The notes under the pieces are model-generated. The model had not been told where the DNA came from. It was given only the letters and a program-made list of their open reading frames with translations, and searched no databases. A stretch of DNA of 56,254 nt, counting the filler, from Sphacelaria rigidula (lineage: Eukaryota): NCBI GenBank assembly GCA_964200075.2. It is 7 parts of 7 records of this genome, joined end to end, with 100 filler letters (N's around TTAATTAATTAA, not from the genome) between each part and the next. Parts side by side here need not be neighbours in the genome. Positions count along the whole stretch, not along the records: positions 24,154 to 32,104 come from CAXNAA020012873.1; 6 more parts are not named here. The stretch is one strand, 5' to 3'. Of the stretch, positions 8,479-40,535 are shown in pieces; the first letter of the stretch is position 1, and every line of letters begins with the position of its first letter. Made by a program: the position numbers and the translations under genes.

Positions 8479-8999
8479 GAAGATACTTTCGCTCTGTGTT
8501 ACTCTTTCGTATCTTCCCTTTAATAGACAAATGCGACTTGAACCTCTTTTTTTGTGTCATTCCCAAAAATTAGGATCCGCTGTTAGCTGGTATCCATGGC
8601 GCAACTCGTGCCTACCCCCCTCCAACGCGTTTTTGCGAGAAGGTTCCATGAGAAGAATACAATAGCGCCGCTGCAATTGGCTGCAGCGATCAAGAAGCAT
8701 GAAGGGCATGGGGCGGGCGCTGAGATAGAGCTAACCCAGACGTCCGCGGCCGTGGCGAAGGCTGTCGCCATGAACCACAAGGGGAAGACCATGCGTGAGA
8801 GGGTGGAGCCAATCATCGGAAAGTTATAGACATTTGTTTCGGAAAATCCCAACGTCGAGATGGTTTATCGTTCTCCTACGATGGGAAATTCCGTCCAGGG
8901 CCCGCTGCGGTGATCACGAAAGCGAAGATGGAGGGTCTGGCCCCGGCGGAATTCAAACAGGCCGTGCTTGTGTAATTACAGCACGAAACCCAGTGGAAG

Positions 9000-11321
9000 T
9001 TGGACCCGTACTTCATTATGGATACTGTGGTGGCTGAGGCTCAGGTATGGCGGAAGGTTGAAGTATTCGAGAAATCATCCACTTCATCGCCGCAGTCTTT
9101 GAGCTCGCGTAACCACGGATCAAAATCCGCAGGCAGTGCCGCCGCCAGTATCACTTGTTTTCAGTGTGGCCAGGTAGGCCACCACGCACGTAAGTGCCCA
9201 ACGCCTTCCGAGGGGGAGTCTGGGCAGACAAGTGCCGCGCGCCCTCGCAATCACAAAGGAGGAAAAGGTAATCGGGGTGGTGGCGGAGGCGGATCCTCCA
9301 GCGGTGGAGGTGTGCAGTCGATTTCCCAGTCCCAGCAGCAGCAGCAGCAGCAGCATGGGCAGCGGCGTCAGCAGGGGCCCGGTTCTGGGTCCGGCTCAGC
9401 CACAGGAACTACTGCTACGCAAAAGACGGGGGAGGTGGGACCGACCACTCAAGCGTCAGGCTCGGTACCGGCGCCGCCGGCAGCAGAGCAAGGCGAGACG
9501 CCTGCTGCTGAGCCGGCCGGATTTCAGCTGAGATTTGGATCCGCTGCTGCGTCGGCCGGAGTACCGCTGCAATTTGGTTCTACGGGCGGGGCTTCGTACC
9601 CGCCGGCGGTGCCGTTTGCCCCAGCGGGGGCGTCTATGCCTGCGCCGCACGCGCAGCCGTGGCGCCAAGTGGGGATCACGACAAATCAGTCGGCGGAGCA
9701 GGTGCCAGTCGAGTATCAAGAAAAATATGTTCCTGCAGAGATATATCTCTCAAATCAACGGGCGTGGGGAGCCATATCGGTCAACGCTGTGTTGGATTCA
9801 GGCGCCTATTTCACAAGCGTGTCGGTGCTGGTTGTGGGAATGCTGGAGCGTCTACTCCCTGATGAGCAAGTCCGCATTCCGTTCTCGCTCGGGGCGCGGC
9901 AGGCCATCACCGCATCGTGGCAACGTTTAAATGTCATGGAGCGTACGATTCCCCTACAGTTGGCGTTCAGGACTACCTGGGGGCCAGCGAAATTACCCCC
10001 GACATGGTTTGCGACCATGCCGGGGACGGATGGTGTCGTTCTGTTGGGCTTACCGACGCTTCGGGAACTCGGAGTCGACCCATACGATCGGCTGCTAGAG
10101 TCCCTAAAAACGCGAATGCCGTCGCCCGGTTCGAGTGTCGAGACGTCTGCCTTTTTGGGCAGTCGTCGCGTGAGCTTGTCGGTGGATGCTTTTCAGGAGA
10201 CTGGGAGGCAGGTGACCGAGGAGCGGGATGCGGCGGTGGAACGCTCAGTAGAGCGCGGCCCGGATATGTTCATAGACCGGGCGGAAGAGGAGTCAGCTCG
10301 GGAGGTCGCGCTGGAGGAGAGCGTGACGGGTGCTGTAGCGAAAGGCCTCAGCGTCTCAAAAGCGGAGCGCCTGCGCGGCATATTCCATTGCCGCGTCAAC
10401 GCGTTTCGTCGTGCGCTGAGGGGTGATCCCCCTGCGCGCGTGGAGCCCATGCGTGTTCAGCTAAAACCTGGGGCGTCTGCGGCGAAGACGAAGCCGCAGC
10501 GGTACGATCCAGTGAAGTCGAGTTGGTTGGCATTGTGCATGGCGGCTATTTTGGCGCTCGGGTTGGTGTCACGGAATTTGCAGGCGGGGTGGTCCAGTCC
10601 GGATATGGCGTTTCCAAAGAAGGCTGCATCGTGGACGGAGGGCAGGCTGCAGGCGTGGGCGGCCGCGAAGGATCTGGTGGCTCATGCCGTGACGCTGCTT
10701 CATCCTCGTCCTGATTGCCAGGTGTCAATGTTTTCGGATGCATCTGAGTGCCATTGGGGTAGTTTGGTCATGCAGGTATCTACAGTTGAAATTGAAATGC
10801 CTGTGCGCGGTGTCGCTGTGTATGGTCCGTGTGAACCTGATGACACGATGCCGTCCAAATCTGTTGTCCACCAAGCGCAACGAATAGATCTTGGGGCCGA
10901 AGATGCGGATGTGCAATCTTTCGAGTCGGACGTTGATACTGCTATCTTGAACGATGAAGGTTTGTTTCGTGTGCATGTGCGTGGCCGAAACGTTTTGTGG
11001 ATTCCGAGTTATGACAAGCAGTTGCAGGTACGTCTGATGATTCGTGCGCACATGCACGACGCGGGGCATCATGGTGTGGCTACGACGCTCGTGCGCTTGC
11101 AAGAGTTCTGTGTCTGGCAGGGGATAGAAACTCATATGCGCGAATTTATCCGACAGTGTCTTCACTGTGCTGACTCGACGGCGGGCGATGTTGTTCCCCG
11201 CCCGCTCGGCGAAACGGTCCATGGGATCACGCCGAATGAAGTCGTTCATTTTAACTTGTACGTGGGCGAGAGTGGCCAGTTAGCTTCCCAAGGTTTGTCG
11301 GAGGATGCTGATCATGAATGA
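9000..11321 (+). CDS. Gag-pol remnant ORF (773 aa): zinc knuckle, protease, deleted RT/RNase H, integrase zinc finger
   Basis: Longest ORF in the window, carrying the motifs listed for the element; no YxDD RT motif. Confidence 0.7.
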   Translation: MDPYFIMDTVVAEAQVWRKVEVFEKSSTSSPQSLSSRNHGSKSAGSAAASITCFQCGQVGHHARKCPTPSEGESGQTSAARPRNHKGGKGNRGGGGGGSSSGGGVQSISQSQQQQQQQHGQRRQQGPGSGSGSATGTTATQKTGEVGPTTQASGSVPAPPAAEQGETPAAEPAGFQLRFGSAAASAGVPLQFGSTGGASYPPAVPFAPAGASMPAPHAQPWRQVGITTNQSAEQVPVEYQEKYVPAEIYLSNQRAWGAISVNAVLDSGAYFTSVSVLVVGMLERLLPDEQVRIPFSLGARQAITASWQRLNVMERTIPLQLAFRTTWGPAKLPPTWFATMPGTDGVVLLGLPTLRELGVDPYDRLLESLKTRMPSPGSSVETSAFLGSRRVSLSVDAFQETGRQVTEERDAAVERSVERGPDMFIDRAEEESAREVALEESVTGAVAKGLSVSKAERLRGIFHCRVNAFRRALRGDPPARVEPMRVQLKPGASAAKTKPQRYDPVKSSWLALCMAAILALGLVSRNLQAGWSSPDMAFPKKAASWTEGRLQAWAAAKDLVAHAVTLLHPRPDCQVSMFSDASECHWGSLVMQVSTVEIEMPVRGVAVYGPCEPDDTMPSKSVVHQAQRIDLGAEDADVQSFESDVDTAILNDEGLFRVHVRGRNVLWIPSYDKQLQVRLMIRAHMHDAGHHGVATTLVRLQEFCVWQGIETHMREFIRQCLHCADSTAGDVVPRPLGETVHGITPNEVVHFNLYVGESGQLASQGLSEDADHE

Positions 11322-16817: not shown

Positions 16818-17408
16818 CAAGGTTATGTTCTGTAGGAGACGGTTTTCTGTATACCCGGGGTATCTTTCCGCGTATACACCGAACGCGACACTTCTGTGAC
16901 TTCCATAAGACTTTCGTACCGGTATCTGATAGTTCTGTAAAATCTGCAAGTCTTTCATTCCGGTGACTGACAGTTCTGTTAACTCTGTAAGACTTTCACA
17001 CCCTCACCCGACAGTTCTGTGAGTTCTGGAAGCCTTCCGCACAGTCACCGGGGGCACGGATATGCTGTTGATAAGATACCCGGTTGCGGGTACGGTTTTT
17101 TGTGCAATCTCCATACCCTACCCGACAGTTTCTGTGAGTTCTGTAAGCTTCCCATACCCTTACCCGACATACCCTTACCCGACAGTTCTGTGAGTTCTGT
17201 ACTGAATGTTTACTCGTACCCGGAGTGCGAGCACGCCGTTGAAGAAATACTCGATTGCCGGTGCGGTTTTCTGCAAGCATCACATGCTCCAGCTGACAAG
17301 TTTTGTAATTTCTGAAAGACTTTAATACCGGTACCCAACAGGTTTGTAATTTCTGTAGGAATCTTATAACCTATAGAACACACCCGTACCCTAGAGATCA
17401 CAACCTTG
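16818..17408. mobile_element. Non-autonomous hAT-like DNA transposon with perfect 8-bp TSD
   Basis: TIR CAAGGTT.TG / CACAACCTTG; CAACGGGC at 16810-16817 and 17409-17416; internal subrepeats gacagttctgtgagttctgta and tacccg. Confidence 0.9.
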
Positions 17409-21450: not shown

Positions 21451-23049
21451 CCCCTAGTTCCGGTCGTAGGAAGCACGTAGATGTAACATGCCATTTTAGT
21501 CGGAAGGCAGAAAACGTCTAGACCGTACATGCAGATTCTGGATGGCAGCATGTTGACATCCCGACGACACCTCTCCAAGTCACGTTGTTGAAGAAACACC
21601 GAGGAGCCTTGATAAATATGGGGGATGACAGGTAGGTCTTGTAAATATACGCCCGGGACCCCTTGGGAGGCTCATAACATGTTGACAGTATTGTGGCTTG
21701 ATGCTGTCAAAGATAGACATGCTCAACTCTCCCGCGGGCAGGGGCTTGCTCAACTGTTCTCAACAACAGGAGCTCGCAGAGAGTGGACCGTGGTCGTTAA
21801 GCTCACTTGCGCCGTGCGGTAAAATAAGAAGTTGATGGTTTTCACGGGCGTTCTTTTGGCCTACACAAAACGAAACGCTAAGTCTATGCTTGAAGCAAAG
21901 AGCTGAATATAGGTGGTGTAGAATGTCAGCTGTAGGGGTGAGCCTAAGCTGTACCATCTCCGAACAATATCAGACTCTTTGTGACGAGAAAACTCTATTA
22001 ATAGGTTCAACATGTTGTACTACAAACCCTTATTTTCAACGTATCATACTCTAAACCTGCATGTTCAATGCCCCGTACCACACACTCGTCCGTTCGGTCT
22101 TTGGTGCTATAGACCCGTACGTTCAACCCTCACGTCTTACCAAATTATATCTAAACTCACAGTTGATTTGCACATCTACTTTGCCTTAAATTAAACTGTA
22201 GATAGAAACGGTTAGTTAAACGTAACAAGTAGTGCCGTCATCTGCTGTCATTGATGTTACGGCTCCTATTGAGTATGCGGATAAGGTTTTATATCGATTA
22301 CAGTAGAGAAAAGTACGGATAGAGCATAACTGGTAAAAGGTCAATGATATTTAAACTTTGCAACAGCAAGCAAGTGATCCTGAACAAAGTGACGTCGAAA
22401 ATGACAATATAATGCGCAAATAATCCCCCTCCAAGACGCCTCTCGGGACATTTCATCATCCCTCAAAGTCCAAAGGTTGAGATCAAAGGCAGGCCAGTAT
22501 GAAATGCAACTTCAAAACTCAGGATAGCGAGAAGGAACATGAACCTCATCCACCACCACAGCCACACCTAGCTCATAGTCAACATACCCATTACTAATAA
22601 GAACGTGTGAACATCCGTGACAACTGTCATCACAATCACAGGCATCAGTCACAAAGTAGCAACGTTGGTTGACATCGCCGTCAGGCGACCTACCCGCCAG
22701 CGCAATGGTATCATCATCAGCATTCGCTAGGTTGAGTTGGGTAAAATTGAAAATCTCGACGCGCGCAAAGCGTTGCCTTGGGTACACTTCCTCACTGTTG
22801 CCAGTCCCGTGAGCGTATATGTTTAGCTGGACGAAGGCGGTGTGAACCGTATGTAGGCTACCGCGCAGAAGCAGTGCTGCACTGCCGTTCCTTTAGAGTT
22901 CACGGCATCGCTTACCATCGTTGTAGGTGGCATGGTGTTACACAACCCTTGCCATGCGACTCTTCTTGTTCTTTGGTTGGAAGTACTTTGTACTGTACGT
23001 AGCGGCTTACCGCAATGTGTATACCGTCGAGCTCTGCATTGCACTGAAC

Positions 23050-23131
23050 TGTACTTGGCTGTACTGTGCTGTACTGTACTGTACTGTACTGTACTGTACT
23101 GTACTGTACTGTACTGTACTGTACTGTACTG
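23050..23131. repeat. (GTACT)n pentanucleotide microsatellite
   Basis: Run of about 14 ACTGT units. Confidence 0.95.
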
Positions 23132-24053
23132 TGCTGCAATAGAGTTGAGTGCAGAGTAGTGAATTGTACGGTACGGTACGAGACGCGTCTGCACCGAAGT
23201 GTATTGTATTAGTATCTATGCAGTTCCGTTCTGTCATAGCTCCAAGTCGTTATCGAAGGGATGAGAGGATACAACAATCAACAGAAAAAAAGGCTTCGAA
23301 CAGCTGCCGGAGTTCTTCATGCGTCCCCATCACGTGTTTTTCGAACTGAGGTGTATCTTTCAACCATCCACGTCGGGAGAGTATGGCGAGATACAATCTA
23401 TCGGCTGCGGTCGTCAAATAAAAAGAATGGTATCTCATATCACTTTCGAGTGTTCTGATGTTTCAATGTAACTGTAGGAATACACCTTTCCAATGACGAA
23501 TGTGAAAATCGGAACTCCGAGCAGTGGTGATGTTGGCCGAGGCAACGCGTTCCATACAACGCCCCTCAAATAGCAGCCATCGGAGAGTTCAAAATTCTTC
23601 AATGGCCTGTTGGAGATAGTATGTACTCTTGAGTACCCGGGTAACATGCCGGAGTATTTTGCCACCCAAGGTTTGGGTAGATTGCACACGTCGGACAGAT
23701 CATTATATGTGTCACCCGGGTAGTACAGGTAGAGTGTGAACACGGTTATGTGCACGATTTGGATCACACGGTGCAACTACTTATGAAACGATTTCCGTGT
23801 TCCAGATCTCATCGATCACGAGGGAGGTATCTTGTACGAATCATGAGAGTATCACAGGTGTTATAGGCGTTTTTCAAGAGAAGGAATATTATCACCCCAG
23901 CTGCTCAAGGCAGAAACGTGATATATTCCCAGGATCAAGTCTTGCCGTTTAACAGCCGATTTTCGAAAATGGGGTTGAAAACAAAATGAGGTTCAACTCA
24001 AAGGTCGTGCTTTCCCTGGCCTAAATTCATGACAAATGCCTTTTATATGGACC

Positions 24054-24153: not shown

Positions 24154-24164
24154 TATTGACACAG

Positions 24165-24419
24165 TGCTGGTGTGGAGCGAGCGACGTGGACTACGACAGG
24201 CACGGTTCTGGCACGTGCGACGACGATTGCGAAGGAGATTCCTCTGTCAAATGCGGTGGGTACTACGCTTTCACTCTATACGAGCAACGGCCTACACCGA
24301 CGACCCCGGCGCCGACCCCGGCGCCTACCATGTATCAGGAGTCCCTTGGATGCTTCAAGGATGAAGCAGACGACCGTGTGCTGACGAACATGCTGTCGAG
24401 CCCTGACATGACGCCGACG
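24165..24419 (+). CDS. WSC gene exon (255 bp, phase 0-0)
   Basis: acag|TGCTGG ... ACG|gtgagc. Confidence 0.9.
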
Positions 24420-27400
24420 GTGAGCAGAATGGGGTTGTATATGGCGATCGGTTATCGCCAGCGGTCGACACAGTCGGCGATGAAGGGCTATGACTCACGA
24501 GTCTCACGCCGGCGATACTCTCCTTGATCGATATGTGTCATGTTACCTATTCGCCACCACCAGAACCCAAGAGTTGTACGTCAGGCAGACGTGGCGTCGA
24601 GTGTTGCCGTCGGACAACCTCCTATACTCGCGTTGACGCTTGGTCGACGACCCCTGTGCCGTATGCCCCACGACAGGTGTGCGCTGCCCACTGCTCCAGC
24701 TATGCCTACTACGCGACGCAGTACGGCAACCAGGTGAGCACGCTGAGGTGACTCTGAGAAACAGGTGGAACACGGGTGATCGTCGCAGCTCGAACGATTG
24801 TGCGCAGGGCAGCAGATGAATACGGCTATGACGACGACGCGATCGTAAATCCCGACATGCACTCTGTCATGACACTTCCCACGATAGCCTCCTCCCATAA
24901 TCAACCAAACCTGTCGCGAAGGAAATAGTCCTACAGCGCCTCATGCTCAAGTTTAGGCTGTATGACACGCCTCATGTGGGCGACATTTGCGTAAACAAAC
25001 CCAAGAGTGGGAATTCCCAGCAGCCCGTTGGGCTCGACGTTTTCCATTACGATTACTGTGTAGGTTTTGCCTGCCCAAACCAGCCACTTCCTTACGGGGG
25101 GCTATCGTGGAACGTGTCATGCATGATGGACGCGTAGACGCGTTTTCCCAGGCCTTCCATTGGGTTGATCTGCCATGTCTGAGTCCTGATTCGTGCAGCT
25201 CTTGACCATATCGCTCGCTGCCTGCATGCTGGTATTGACACAGTGCTGGTGTGGAGCGAGCGACGTGGACTACGACAGGCACGGTTCTGGCACGTGCGAC
25301 GACGATTGCGAAGGAGATTCCTCTGTCAAATGCGGTGGGTACTACGCTTTCACTCTATACGAGCAACGGCCTACACCGACGACCCCGGCGCCGACCCCGG
25401 CGCCTACCATGTATCAGGAGTCCCTTGGATGCTTCAAGGACAAATCAACCGACCGTGTGCTGACGAACATGCTGTCGAGCCCTGACATGACGCCAACGGT
25501 GAGCAGAATGAGGTTGTATATGGCGATCGGTTATCGCCAGCGGTCGAGATGCACAGTCGGGGACGAAGGGCTTTGACTCACGAGTCTCACGCCGGCGATA
25601 CTTTCCTTTATCGATATATGTCATATTACCTCCCTTTTACCACAACGCGAGGTCAATACGGTAGGCGTGGCGTCGAATCCCGCTGTCGGATGCGTCGTGA
25701 TTCCACGCTGGCGGAATGACACCCAGATGGGGGAATGCGTTGCTGATTTCAGGAGGAAGCAGGGCTCATTTATGTGTCGGACGGCTTAATACACCTGCGG
25801 TGCGATTGAGTGTGGGCAAAATGGCATGAATCAGCTGCATGAGTGTTCACGTTTGGTATCAAGTGCGTTCGAACAAATTTGCTGACTTCAACGACGATTC
25901 GGAGTCGTTTTTCGTAGAAGGAATTGCCCAATCCCCCCCTTTCGTAGGATGACTCGACCCTTGACCGAAGAGAACTGTGCTTCATGCCCCGTGACAGGTG
26001 TGCGCTACCCACTGCTCCAGCTATGCCTACTACGCGACGCAGTTCGGAACCGAGGTGAGCATGAGTTAACATATTCATTCTTTTCACGTTCAGATAACTG
26101 GGCTACCTTTTATTTACTATCGAATGGTGATACATATCCATGTGTTTTTTATTGACGATGCTTCGATGAGACTCGTAGACCGTTGGTTGCCTATAAGCAA
26201 GGCTTAATTGCAAACATACCCCAAGTGGTTTCTCTCATATTTTCCGCTGTTGCCAGTGTTTGGCGGTAGTTTGTCCTGAAAGCTTTCGAGCCCGGGGTTT
26301 ACCACCAATCAAAAGCGCGTCTTTCTGTCTGTTTGTCAGATCTGAAAATGTCTCCAAATTAACCACAATCCAAGCAAAACCGTGCAGTCCGTGTGGCTCC
26401 TGTTCGACATGACTAAGTGTTTGCACTACAGTACCGCGCAGAAGTAGTAGGCACAAGCATAATACAGCACCGCCACACACCGTACCGTACAGTACAGCCA
26501 TCAACATATGAAAATACGTTCTGAGAAAATGAGGAGGCTCGATATTCAAGTAAGGTTCAGGTGGCAAATAATGACACGTAAAGACCATACGAAGGAGTGC
26601 CGACCGATTGTTTTTGTTTTTTGCAAGTTTTCACGAAAAAGGTTTTGATCGAAGGACCGACGCCGTGGTGAGTAGGGCGACTCGCGCACAGAGTCGGGCT
26701 AGAGGTACTACATAAAGGATTGTTTTGCGAAACACGGAGACTGCTTGGGTAGAGAAAGAGTGTACCCTACCGTGCTGCTTACCCGTACATCGAATCAGAC
26801 TCCATGGCAGTTTTGCTGGAGGGCAGAGATCCTGAAAATGCGGGGAAGTAGAGCGCAACCGCCTCGGCGGTCTAAGACGCTGTACCAAACTAGAAGTAGC
26901 AAATACACGGCGAGGGTTCTTTTCTGTCTTCTAGGACGAAAAAATGAAAAGAGAGTGTCTGGCCGCCGGGGCGGGGCGCCTGAAAACTTTGATAATAAAT
27001 AGAGACTAATTTGAAGCATCTGACTTGTCTTGGCGGACAGGGGAAGCTGTACAGACTTCGAATACCGTACAGCAGCGGCCGCTCTAAAAGTTGGGTTGTC
27101 TGCCCAGGGTGGCGCCGTACCTGTATTACCGTAGGTGACTACATGCCGTCTGCGGTTTTATTATCTTTCTTCGTCGTGCACATCCATTTACACCAGACGT
27201 CCTCCGCGCGCGAATGCACGGAGTAGGGCACGAGACGGATTTTCCCGCCGGGCTCGAGCCGTGCGTGCGAGAACTGTATCGCCCGCGAAGGGCTGGGGCA
27301 CACTTGTCGGCAGCGAAGCTGGTTCATGAAAAACAAAATACAGTCAATCTGACAGTTCCGACCCATGCAAGGGCGGCCAAGACAAATAGATGCAGAACAG

Positions 27401-40319: not shown

Positions 40320-40486
40320 TGTGATGTTTATCCTTACCCGGGGTACGGGTATACCCTTGTAAAAATATCTGGATGCGGGTACGGTTCTCTGTTCGACAGT
40401 CATACCGATACGCGACAGTTCTGTAAGTCCTATAAGGAATCTCATTCCCTACTGAGCGTACCCGTACCCCACAGAACACAACCTTG
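40320..40486. mobile_element. Partial copy of the 16818-17408 hAT-like element
   Basis: gacagttctgtaag...cgtacccgtaccccacagaacacaaccttg terminus, 50 bp beyond the TMEM245-like stop codon. Confidence 0.75.
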
Positions 40487-40535
40487 CAGAATGCTGCTGC
40501 CCTACACACGTTTGCGTGGTGGCACCATCGCGCGT

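What the first reader, a model, noticed from the sequence alone, without database searches (positions are those of the whole stretch)
24165..26054. WSC gene built from tandem phase-0 exon pairs, nearly identical except for small amino-acid-changing patches
Seen: a 255-bp plus 57-bp exon pair is repeated (255-bp exons 1079 bp apart) and all boundaries are phase 0, so units could be added, skipped or swapped in frame. The two 255-bp exons are identical for the first ~197 nt, synonymous sites included. Five of their 6 differences fall within 10 nt (GAT GAA GCA GAC vs GAC AAA TCA ACC; DEAD vs DKST), in the loop after GCF. The 57-bp exons differ at 5 nt, 4 of them non-synonymous (A>T, QYGNQ>QFGTE). 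Known: WSC (carbohydrate-binding) genes are expanded in brown algae, and exon-shuffled LRR-ROCO and NB-ARC-TPR genes with hypervariable residues are described in Ectocarpus. Inference: this may be a similar modular, diversifying glycan-recognition system that uses WSC exons. The contig starts inside the array, so more units probably lie upstream.
Basis: partly seen in the sequence, partly recalled or inferred. Interest (0 to 1): 0.7.

Follow-up and report, generated by a model that had tools for sequence, protein, structure and literature searches.

The report
Recently amplified WSC repeats in seaweed
A brown-seaweed gene for a cell-surface protein appears to have recently multiplied one of its sugar-binding-type (WSC) modules into a row of nearly identical copies, an ordinary way for repeat proteins to grow, with no sign that the copies are being diversified like immune receptors.

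Summary
The gene is a brown-algal multi-WSC protein with a Pro/Thr stalk (further exons at 30416 and about 31249 were missed). The phase-0 exon pair is the family's old layout (26 of 26 C-parts, 22 of 26 middle exons), and paralogues keep their domains in order rather than shuffled. Public contigs of four samples show a further unit type, head-to-tail, at 3-8 times single-copy depth: probably 3-7 more copies, collapsed out of the assembly. They carry the unit-1 patches (DEAD, QYGNQ); DKST is single-copy. So the patches separate the amplified domain from the last domain, not copy from copy. Unit 1 versus 2: 8 non-synonymous, 3 synonymous changes, as neutral chance gives (p=0.72); family omega 0.26, no patch site above 1. 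Three of the five clustered changes complete a perfect hairpin, pointing to one template-switch event. Near-identical WSC repeats occur in 20 of 141 multi-WSC proteins. The scan noted a similar LRR case elsewhere, not this one.

The parts
24154..24164 (+). Contig start: last 11 nt of the intron before exon A1; the contig breaks exactly where identity with unit 2 ends
   Evidence: unit types in reads diverge at the matching places 25232-25233 (table 3)
24165..24419 (+). Exon A1, 255 nt, phase 0/0: C-half of one WSC domain, PT linker, N-part of the next (DEAD type)
   Evidence: protein P0001
24351..24368 (.). Perfect inverted repeat, 7-bp arms and 4-nt loop, whose right arm holds 3 of the 5 clustered differences; absent from unit 2
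   Evidence: 1 of 27 substitutions at these places, 20 of 5400 across the exon; 1 of 63 N-parts has such a stem
24677..24733 (+). Exon B1, 57 nt, phase 0/0: helix and third strand of the WSC domain (QYGNQ type)
24870..25119 (.). Dispersed ~250-bp repeat (transposon-like) inserted in the intron of unit 1; absent from the majority unit type
   Evidence: 1614 candidates, 40 scored, 75-83% alike; joint 24865-25116 in X4
25233..25440 (+). 208-nt tract identical to 24154-24361
25244..25498 (+). Exon A2, 255 nt, phase 0/0: C-half of the amplified domain, linker, N-part of the last domain (DKST type, single-copy depth)
25998..26054 (+). Exon B2, 57 nt, phase 0/0: middle of the last WSC domain (QFGTE type)
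30416..30626 (+).
31249..32104 (+). Predicted Pro/Thr-rich stalk exon (in-frame acceptor at 31249; an upstream acceptor at 30950 would need a frameshift at the C run 31220-31229); ends in 36-nt repeats at the contig end
   Evidence: boundaries inferred, no RNA

Best explanation
A secreted or surface-bound brown-algal protein made of a row of WSC domains on a Pro/Thr stalk. The family has two old phase-0 introns in each domain, so one exon pair with its introns (about 0.7-1.1 kb) is a unit that unequal crossing-over can add or remove in frame. In this gene one unit was recently amplified to roughly 3-7 further near-identical copies, which the short-read assembly collapsed; units 1 and 2 are the 3' edge of that array. 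Crossing-over or conversion keeps the copies alike and has overwritten the 5' 208 nt of unit 2, while its 3' part (N-part and middle of the last domain) stays about 9-10% diverged. The 'patches' are that residual divergence between the amplified domain and the last domain, seen where the fold tolerates change; most of the DEAD patch probably arose in one template-switch event. The likely gain is avidity or reach: more copies of the same binding module for wall or substrate glycan. Shown: exons, domain, family layout, lack of omega>1, a high-depth extra unit type. Inferred: tandem position and number of the extra units, recombination mechanism, template switch, secretion, glycan binding.
For: Layout shared by paralogues: 26 of 26 C-parts start after AG, 26 of 26 middle parts end at GT, 22 of 26 start after AG. 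Extra unit type in 4 of 4 runs laid: 12-nt shorter linker, no transposon, joint 25578 to 24587 that closes the unit head-to-tail (X5 only), depth 3.1-7.8 times single-copy contigs or 3.0-4.8 times two alleles summed; DKST 1.0-1.6 times. Its difference counts leave no room for the DKST or QFGTE changes (tables 3 and 8). G000's two highest-numbered contigs checked are about 5.45 kb, so a 0.7-kb unit would not be held. Stepwise divergence of unit 1 vs 2: 208/208, 52/58, 121/133, then 54/95. pN/pS 0.88, p=0.72. Family M0 omega 0.26; patch sites 0.07-0.69, P(omega>1) at most 0.01; 0 of 181 pairs above 1. Hairpin; template switching gives such non-adaptive clusters (PMC8604942, abstract). 20 of 141 multi-WSC proteins hold a pair at least 80% identical.
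Against: Contig depth is not a copy number and the tool says so; only 40 of 144 difference rows and 32 of 1777 pieces were shown, and Logan contigs drop rare variants, so variation among the hidden copies is under-seen. The head-to-tail joint stands in one contig of one run with 35 letters on the short side. The 3' part shows 8 amino-acid-changing differences where family omega predicts 2-4 (p=0.001-0.05; 0.02-0.2 if the hairpin changes and the adjacent doublet each count once). The site model found one class above 1 (p=0.016), at one site next to an alignment gap that is identical in units 1 and 2. The hairpin test was made after seeing the data. No signal peptide, anchor or RNA was seen: both gene ends lie off the contig.
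Confidence: 0.7

Rival explanations
1. Same array, but the patches are kept by selection against homogenisation: the first and fourth loops must pack on the long fifth loop, which in the last domain comes from the divergent exon C, so those residues cannot be overwritten; or the last domain binds something different.
For: Differences sit in the loop after strand 1 and the turn between strands 3 and 4 of the model; in Wsc1 loops L1, L2 and L4 pack with L5 at one end of the domain (PMC9024836, passages). Excess of amino-acid changes over family omega. The amplified domain is the most acidic of 22 subfamily domains (net -10; loop -3).
Against: Synonymous and intron divergence in the same stretch is as high (3/29, 12/133) as non-synonymous (8/88), so no peak needs explaining; one changed residue is on the helix; no model coordinates were available to measure contacts. 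Compatible with the best explanation as an added force.
Confidence: 0.14
2. ROCO/NB-ARC-TPR-like diversifying recognition system: WSC units are shuffled, skipped or converted to vary a ligand-binding face under positive selection.
For: In-frame units; recent recombination in the array; several intron sub-variants among hidden copies; a broken tandem paralogue on C35 shows gene birth and death; patches at one end of the fold; a two-exon unit would have escaped the equal-length exon screen in PMC3341825.
Against: Hidden copies share the patches; no patch site under positive selection; domains group by position across paralogues with support 76-100; 0 of 66 exon hits inverted; loop not enriched in other near-identical WSC arrays; no NTPase domain in the part seen.
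Confidence: 0.08
3. Assembly artefact: the 5' 208 nt of unit 1 were borrowed from unit 2 (or both from a consensus), so the contrast between 'identical' and 'patch' is made by the assembler.
For: The contig starts exactly at the left end of the identical tract; in X1 and X4 all shown depth at 24245 carries the other base; heterozygous alleles are present in the runs.
Against: Both patch types and both introns exist in read contigs; the majority type differs from the assembled exons, so they are no majority consensus; the linker indel and the patch are 50-60 nt apart, within one read; units 1 and 2 are too divergent in introns to be alleles (against about 1-3% allelic differences). Even if true, the repeat array remains real.
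Confidence: 0.08

Closest known systems
Brown-algal WSC-domain protein family (Pfam PF01822); 444 proteins in Ectocarpus sp. Ec32, 320 in E. subulatus (10.1101/307165, passages)
   Same: WSC domain above the curated cut-off, eight cysteines and CGG motif, tandem domains with PT linkers, many paralogues in the genome (106 matches); WSC proteins are listed among brown-algal wall proteins (PMC8307928, figure legend).
   Different: One unit is recently amplified: within other subfamily genes neighbouring domains are at most 71% alike in DNA.
Apolipoprotein(a) kringle IV type 2 array (LPA KIV-2; PMC6314250, passages)
   Same: Works like it: a disulfide-rich module on a two-exon unit, repeated in near-identical copies with a few sub-types, hidden from ordinary short-read analysis.
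   Different: Unrelated sequence and lineage; unit 0.7-1.1 kb against 5.6 kb; here the unit is a circular permutation of the domain; copy-number polymorphism is not shown here.
Ectocarpus/Saccharina LRR-ROCO and NB-ARC-TPR exon-shuffling genes (PMC3341825, parts 2-5 of 7; PMC11378527, abstract)
   Same: Brown-algal gene with a repetitive, frame-preserving exon structure and local duplication of repeat exons.
   Different: One repeat is not one exon; no inverted or silent exons; order conserved between paralogues; no positive selection at the variable sites; no Roc-COR or NB-ARC domain seen.
Yeast Wsc1 sensor (PDB 7PZ2) and Kremen1 WSC domain (PDB 5FWS)
   Same: Same fold (rmsd 1.3-3.0 A over 92-102 columns, E 2.5e-7 to 4.5e-5); cysteine-rich head on a long low-complexity stalk resembles Wsc1 (stalk recalled, not from a call).
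   Different: Several heads in a row; Pro/Thr stalk; no transmembrane helix or tail seen because the contig ends in the stalk.

Membership tests
WSC-domain proteins (PF01822) | Profile match above the curated cut-off | tested here: met
   P0001 60.2 bits against 27.8, profile 2-82 of 82
WSC-domain proteins (PF01822) | WSC/PAN-like fold with eight cysteines and CGG motif | tested here: met
   Model pLDDT 92; top 7 fold hits are Kremen1, Wsc1 and a glyoxal oxidase; cysteines invariant (partly by the patterns used to collect segments)
WSC-domain proteins (PF01822) | Secreted or surface-exposed; binds glycan or protein | not testable with these tools
   5' and 3' ends lie off the contig; no assay
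ROCO / NB-ARC-TPR exon-shuffling receptors | Each repeat encoded by one exon of fixed length | tested here: not met
   Each WSC domain spans three exon parts
ROCO / NB-ARC-TPR exon-shuffling receptors | Silent or inverted repeat exons inside introns | tested here: not met
   0 of 66 tblastn hits on the opposite strand in 12 subfamily stretches; only the known exons in C12873 (the 19-residue B query gave no rows for C12873, so short silent B exons could be missed; hidden units not visible)
ROCO / NB-ARC-TPR exon-shuffling receptors | Exon order and paralogy scrambled between related genes | tested here: not met
   22-domain tree: second, third, fourth and fifth domains of different genes group by position, support 93, 76, 93, 100
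ROCO / NB-ARC-TPR exon-shuffling receptors | Positive selection at exposed repeat positions | tested here: not met
   Patch sites omega 0.07-0.69, P(>1) at most 0.01; one other site above 1 beside a gap (own grid model, 22 domains, limited power); pN/pS 0.88
ROCO / NB-ARC-TPR exon-shuffling receptors | Roc-COR or NB-ARC signalling domain in the same protein | tested here: inconclusive
   None in the part held; a PT stalk follows; gene ends missing
ROCO / NB-ARC-TPR exon-shuffling receptors | Alternative splicing of repeat exons | not testable with these tools
   No RNA holder listed
Tandem two-exon module arrays under concerted evolution (KIV-2-like; mode, not family) | Near-identical head-to-tail exon-plus-intron units in several copies | tested here: met
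   Two units assembled; further type at 3-8x depth with a head-to-tail joint; number inferred from depth
Tandem two-exon module arrays under concerted evolution (KIV-2-like; mode, not family) | Copy number varies between individuals | tested here: inconclusive
   Depth ratios 3.1-7.8 over four samples are too noisy to call

The most novel reading that the evidence does not exclude
Brown algae carry a hidden class of length-variable WSC lectin arrays: exon-pair units gained, lost and converted fast enough to differ between individuals (or skipped in frame by splicing), with the L1/L4 face of the domain changing charge under selection by microbes or wall glycans. Short-read assemblies would have collapsed them and the published equal-length exon screen would have missed them; hints at a second collapsed array in a paralogue absent from G000.
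Probability: 0.1. Interest if true: 0.7.

Novelty: new member of a known kind. Interest (0 to 1): 0.3.

Why it matters
As found, it is a tidy example of how multi-WSC proteins grow, and a warning that WSC domain counts from short-read brown-algal assemblies are too low: 9 of 11 subfamily contigs end within 0.7 kb of a non-terminal WSC exon. It also offers a natural test case for what brown-algal WSC domains bind, since one acidic domain is repeated many times beside a less acidic one. If the novel case held, it would add a third, glycan-directed class to the exon-modular candidate receptors of brown algae.

Tried and rejected
Search for the upstream contig: DNA of exon A, of both introns and of exon B found no other near-identical copy in G000; C22945 ends 0.1 kb after an 84%-alike B exon and could be the 5' end, unproven. 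Search for the downstream contig by the stalk repeat: 5 matches, all in C12873. Donor for the patch by conversion from a paralogue: a pattern covering both variants with 2 mismatches hit only the two units. Units 1 and 2 as two alleles joined in tandem: rejected on intron divergence. Micro-inversion as the source of the patch: not seen by eye; slippage for the last two changes is possible but untested. No RNA holder listed: no evidence either way. Literature: 'WSC domain'+'tandem repeats'+'gene conversion'+'exon' gave 0 papers; 'WSC domain'+'exon shuffling' gave 3, 2 listed, of which one was read in passages and does not describe WSC shuffling, the other seen as a listing only; subscription papers and bioRxiv supplements were not searchable, so absence from print is not shown. 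Earlier scan notes: none for this genome. No complex prediction was run: no binding claim is made. Weak Pfam hits to UBA_BRSK and Toxin_35 were below cut-off for P0001 and ignored.

Full report
Setting. The window is seven contigs of about 8 kb joined by N spacers. The finding lies on one, G000:C12873 (window 24154-32104). The spliced product is held as P0001, which its source labels as a partial protein of the brown alga Sphacelaria rigidula.

Observation. The clustering of five of six differences is beyond uniform chance (p=2e-5 over the exon, 0.004 over its last 58 nt). Two things were missed. The gene continues with a third WSC-half exon at 30416-30626 and a Pro/Thr stalk to the contig end. 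And exons are out of register with domains: the 255-nt exon holds the C-half of one domain, a linker and the N-part of the next, the 57-nt exon the middle. The domain is a true WSC (60.2 bits, cut-off 27.8); a model from 53 sequences (pLDDT 92) matches Kremen1 and Wsc1.

The layout is old and family-wide. Exon A found 106 matches among 150 scored candidates in G000. I fetched 34 stretches around the better ones and took WSC segments by pattern from 25 of them plus the window contig: 63 N-parts, 55 middles, 68 C-parts (segments that missed the patterns were dropped). In the 11-contig subfamily 26 of 26 C-parts start after AG, 26 of 26 middles end at GT and 22 of 26 start after AG. In a tree of 22 complete domains, second, third, fourth and fifth domains of different genes group by position (support 93, 76, 93, 100; first domains are weakly resolved). 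Shuffled ROCO exons show the opposite (PMC3341825, parts 2-5 of 7 read). No inverted WSC exon was found (0 of 66 hits).

Hidden copies. Ten runs were listed, five holding the stretch; I laid four (X1, X3, X4, X5; four samples, two studies; one may be the source of the assembly) on 24154-27300. All are Logan contigs; 40 of 144 difference rows and 32 of 1777 pieces were shown. All four hold a unit type not in the assembly: one synonymous and one linker change in exon A, a 12-nt shorter linker (seen in X1, X4, X5), no 250-bp transposon-like insert (joint in X4), and in X5 a joint from the intron after A back to the intron before B, which closes a unit of about 730 nt head-to-tail. Its depth is 5.6-7.3, 6.3-7.8, 4.0-6.0 and 3.1-4.2 times the median of single-copy contigs, or 3.0-4.8 times the sum of two alleles where both are kept; the DKST variant stands at 1.0-1.6 in the three runs that show it. 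Depth is not a copy number, so '3-7 further units' is an inference. The contigs of this type span the patch with only 3 (X1) and 8 (X4) other letters against unit 1, mostly placed elsewhere, and the X3 contig over the end of exon B adds none to the 17 intron differences, so the type reads DEAD and QYGNQ (inferred from counts). At least two intron sub-variants exist. G000 seems to hold no contigs under about 5.4 kb (two checked), which explains the absence. The protein is thus probably several copies of one acidic domain followed by one older last domain (DKST, QFGTE, exon C).

Selection. Unit 1 against unit 2: 8 non-synonymous changes in 235 sites, 3 synonymous in 77; pN/pS 0.88, p=0.72 for an excess. 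Identity falls in steps: 208/208, 52/58 for the N-part, 121/133 for the intron start, 54/95 beyond, 30/42 before B, 52 of 57 in B: a recombination breakpoint near the GCF codons, with about 9-10% divergence 3' of it in exon and intron alike. Across 22 subfamily domains M0 omega is 0.26, no pair of 181 usable exceeds 1, and the seven patch sites have 0.07-0.69. My grid model does prefer a class above 1 (p=0.016), but for one site beside an alignment gap, identical in both units. The post-GCF loop and the residue after QYG are variable family-wide, as are many other positions. Among 153 proteins have several WSC domains and 20 have a pair at least 80% identical; their 234 differences are spread over all variable columns, 24 in this loop against 19 expected (p=0.14). 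Against my reading: 8 amino-acid-changing differences in the 3' part exceed the 2-4 that family omega predicts (p=0.001-0.05; 0.02-0.2 if the hairpin changes and the doublet each count once), so relaxed or mildly adaptive change in this lineage is open. The patches map to the loop after strand 1 and the turn between strands 3 and 4, which by the Wsc1 topology are L1 and L4, at one end of the domain beside L5 (PMC9024836, passages; numbering mapped by me, no coordinates).

Why the changes cluster. In the DEAD type, 24351-24368 is a perfect 7-bp inverted repeat whose right arm holds the first three differences; unit 2 has no stem. One of 27 possible substitutions at those places gives this, 20 of 5400 across the exon, and 1 of 63 N-parts has such a stem. 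Glu and Ala there are each unique among 25 subfamily N-parts, so this is the derived state. Template switching at imperfect inverted repeats gives multi-nucleotide non-synonymous changes without adaptation (PMC8604942, abstract). The test was post hoc; I put it at about 65%.

Mechanism. Shown: exons, domain, family layout, conserved order, no selection signal at the patches, a high-depth extra unit. Inferred: tandem amplification by unequal crossing-over between phase-0 introns, homogenisation with a divergent edge unit, and function as a multivalent wall or adhesion protein. WSC proteins are numerous in brown algae, occur in the wall and have no established function there (10.1101/307165, PMC8307928, 10.1101/2024.02.19.579948, passages); multimerised WSC domains are proposed to raise glycan affinity. 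The closest working analogue is the two-exon KIV-2 array of LPA (PMC6314250, passages).

Novelty. I found no paper on WSC exon-pair arrays in the searches named under Tried and rejected, but every component is known: the family, the mode of growth and near-identical WSC repeats. New member of a known kind; interest 0.3. The bold reading, a hidden class of variable WSC lectin arrays under selection, is not excluded, because the collapsed copies were seen only through contigs that drop rare variants: 0.1.

Noticed in passing
(X1, X3, X4), contigs laid at window 24680-24742 and 25380-25421: A second WSC unit, resembling the C35 genes, stands at about 3.6-5.7 times single-copy depth and its motif is absent from G000: possibly another collapsed array in a paralogue.
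   Followed up: partly
window 30950-31248: An upstream Pro/Thr-rich frame with its own in-phase acceptor is out of frame with the main stalk at a run of ten C (31220-31229): homopolymer error, decayed exon start or alternative acceptor.
   Followed up: partly
G000:C35:300-3300 (L048): [quoted passage not shown]
   Followed up: partly
L044, L045, L061 (C8238, C6873, C7965), after the last WSC exon: Paralogues continue past the PT stalk with an RRQL...RALQ-type motif and a beta-rich exon that looks like a C2 domain (resemblance recalled, not scanned).
   Followed up: no
L047 (C10359) and L052 (C12682): Another recently duplicated WSC pair, 94% alike in DNA with dN/dS about 0.18; both contigs end inside their arrays.
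   Followed up: partly
L044, L046, L047, L050, L052: The second-position domain has lost the intron between N-part and middle in 5 subfamily contigs, a shared derived mark of position.
   Followed up: partly
window 8976-11321: 781-residue frame with a zinc knuckle, protease-like and integrase-like motifs: decayed LTR retrotransposon (read by eye, not scanned).
   Followed up: no
window 23024-23208; 16901-17359 and 40336-40488: A GTACT microsatellite array, and a 41-56-nt repeat family shared by two contigs.
   Followed up: no
window 25579-27150: The laid runs carry two alleles about 1-3% apart in the introns downstream of unit 2.
   Followed up: partly
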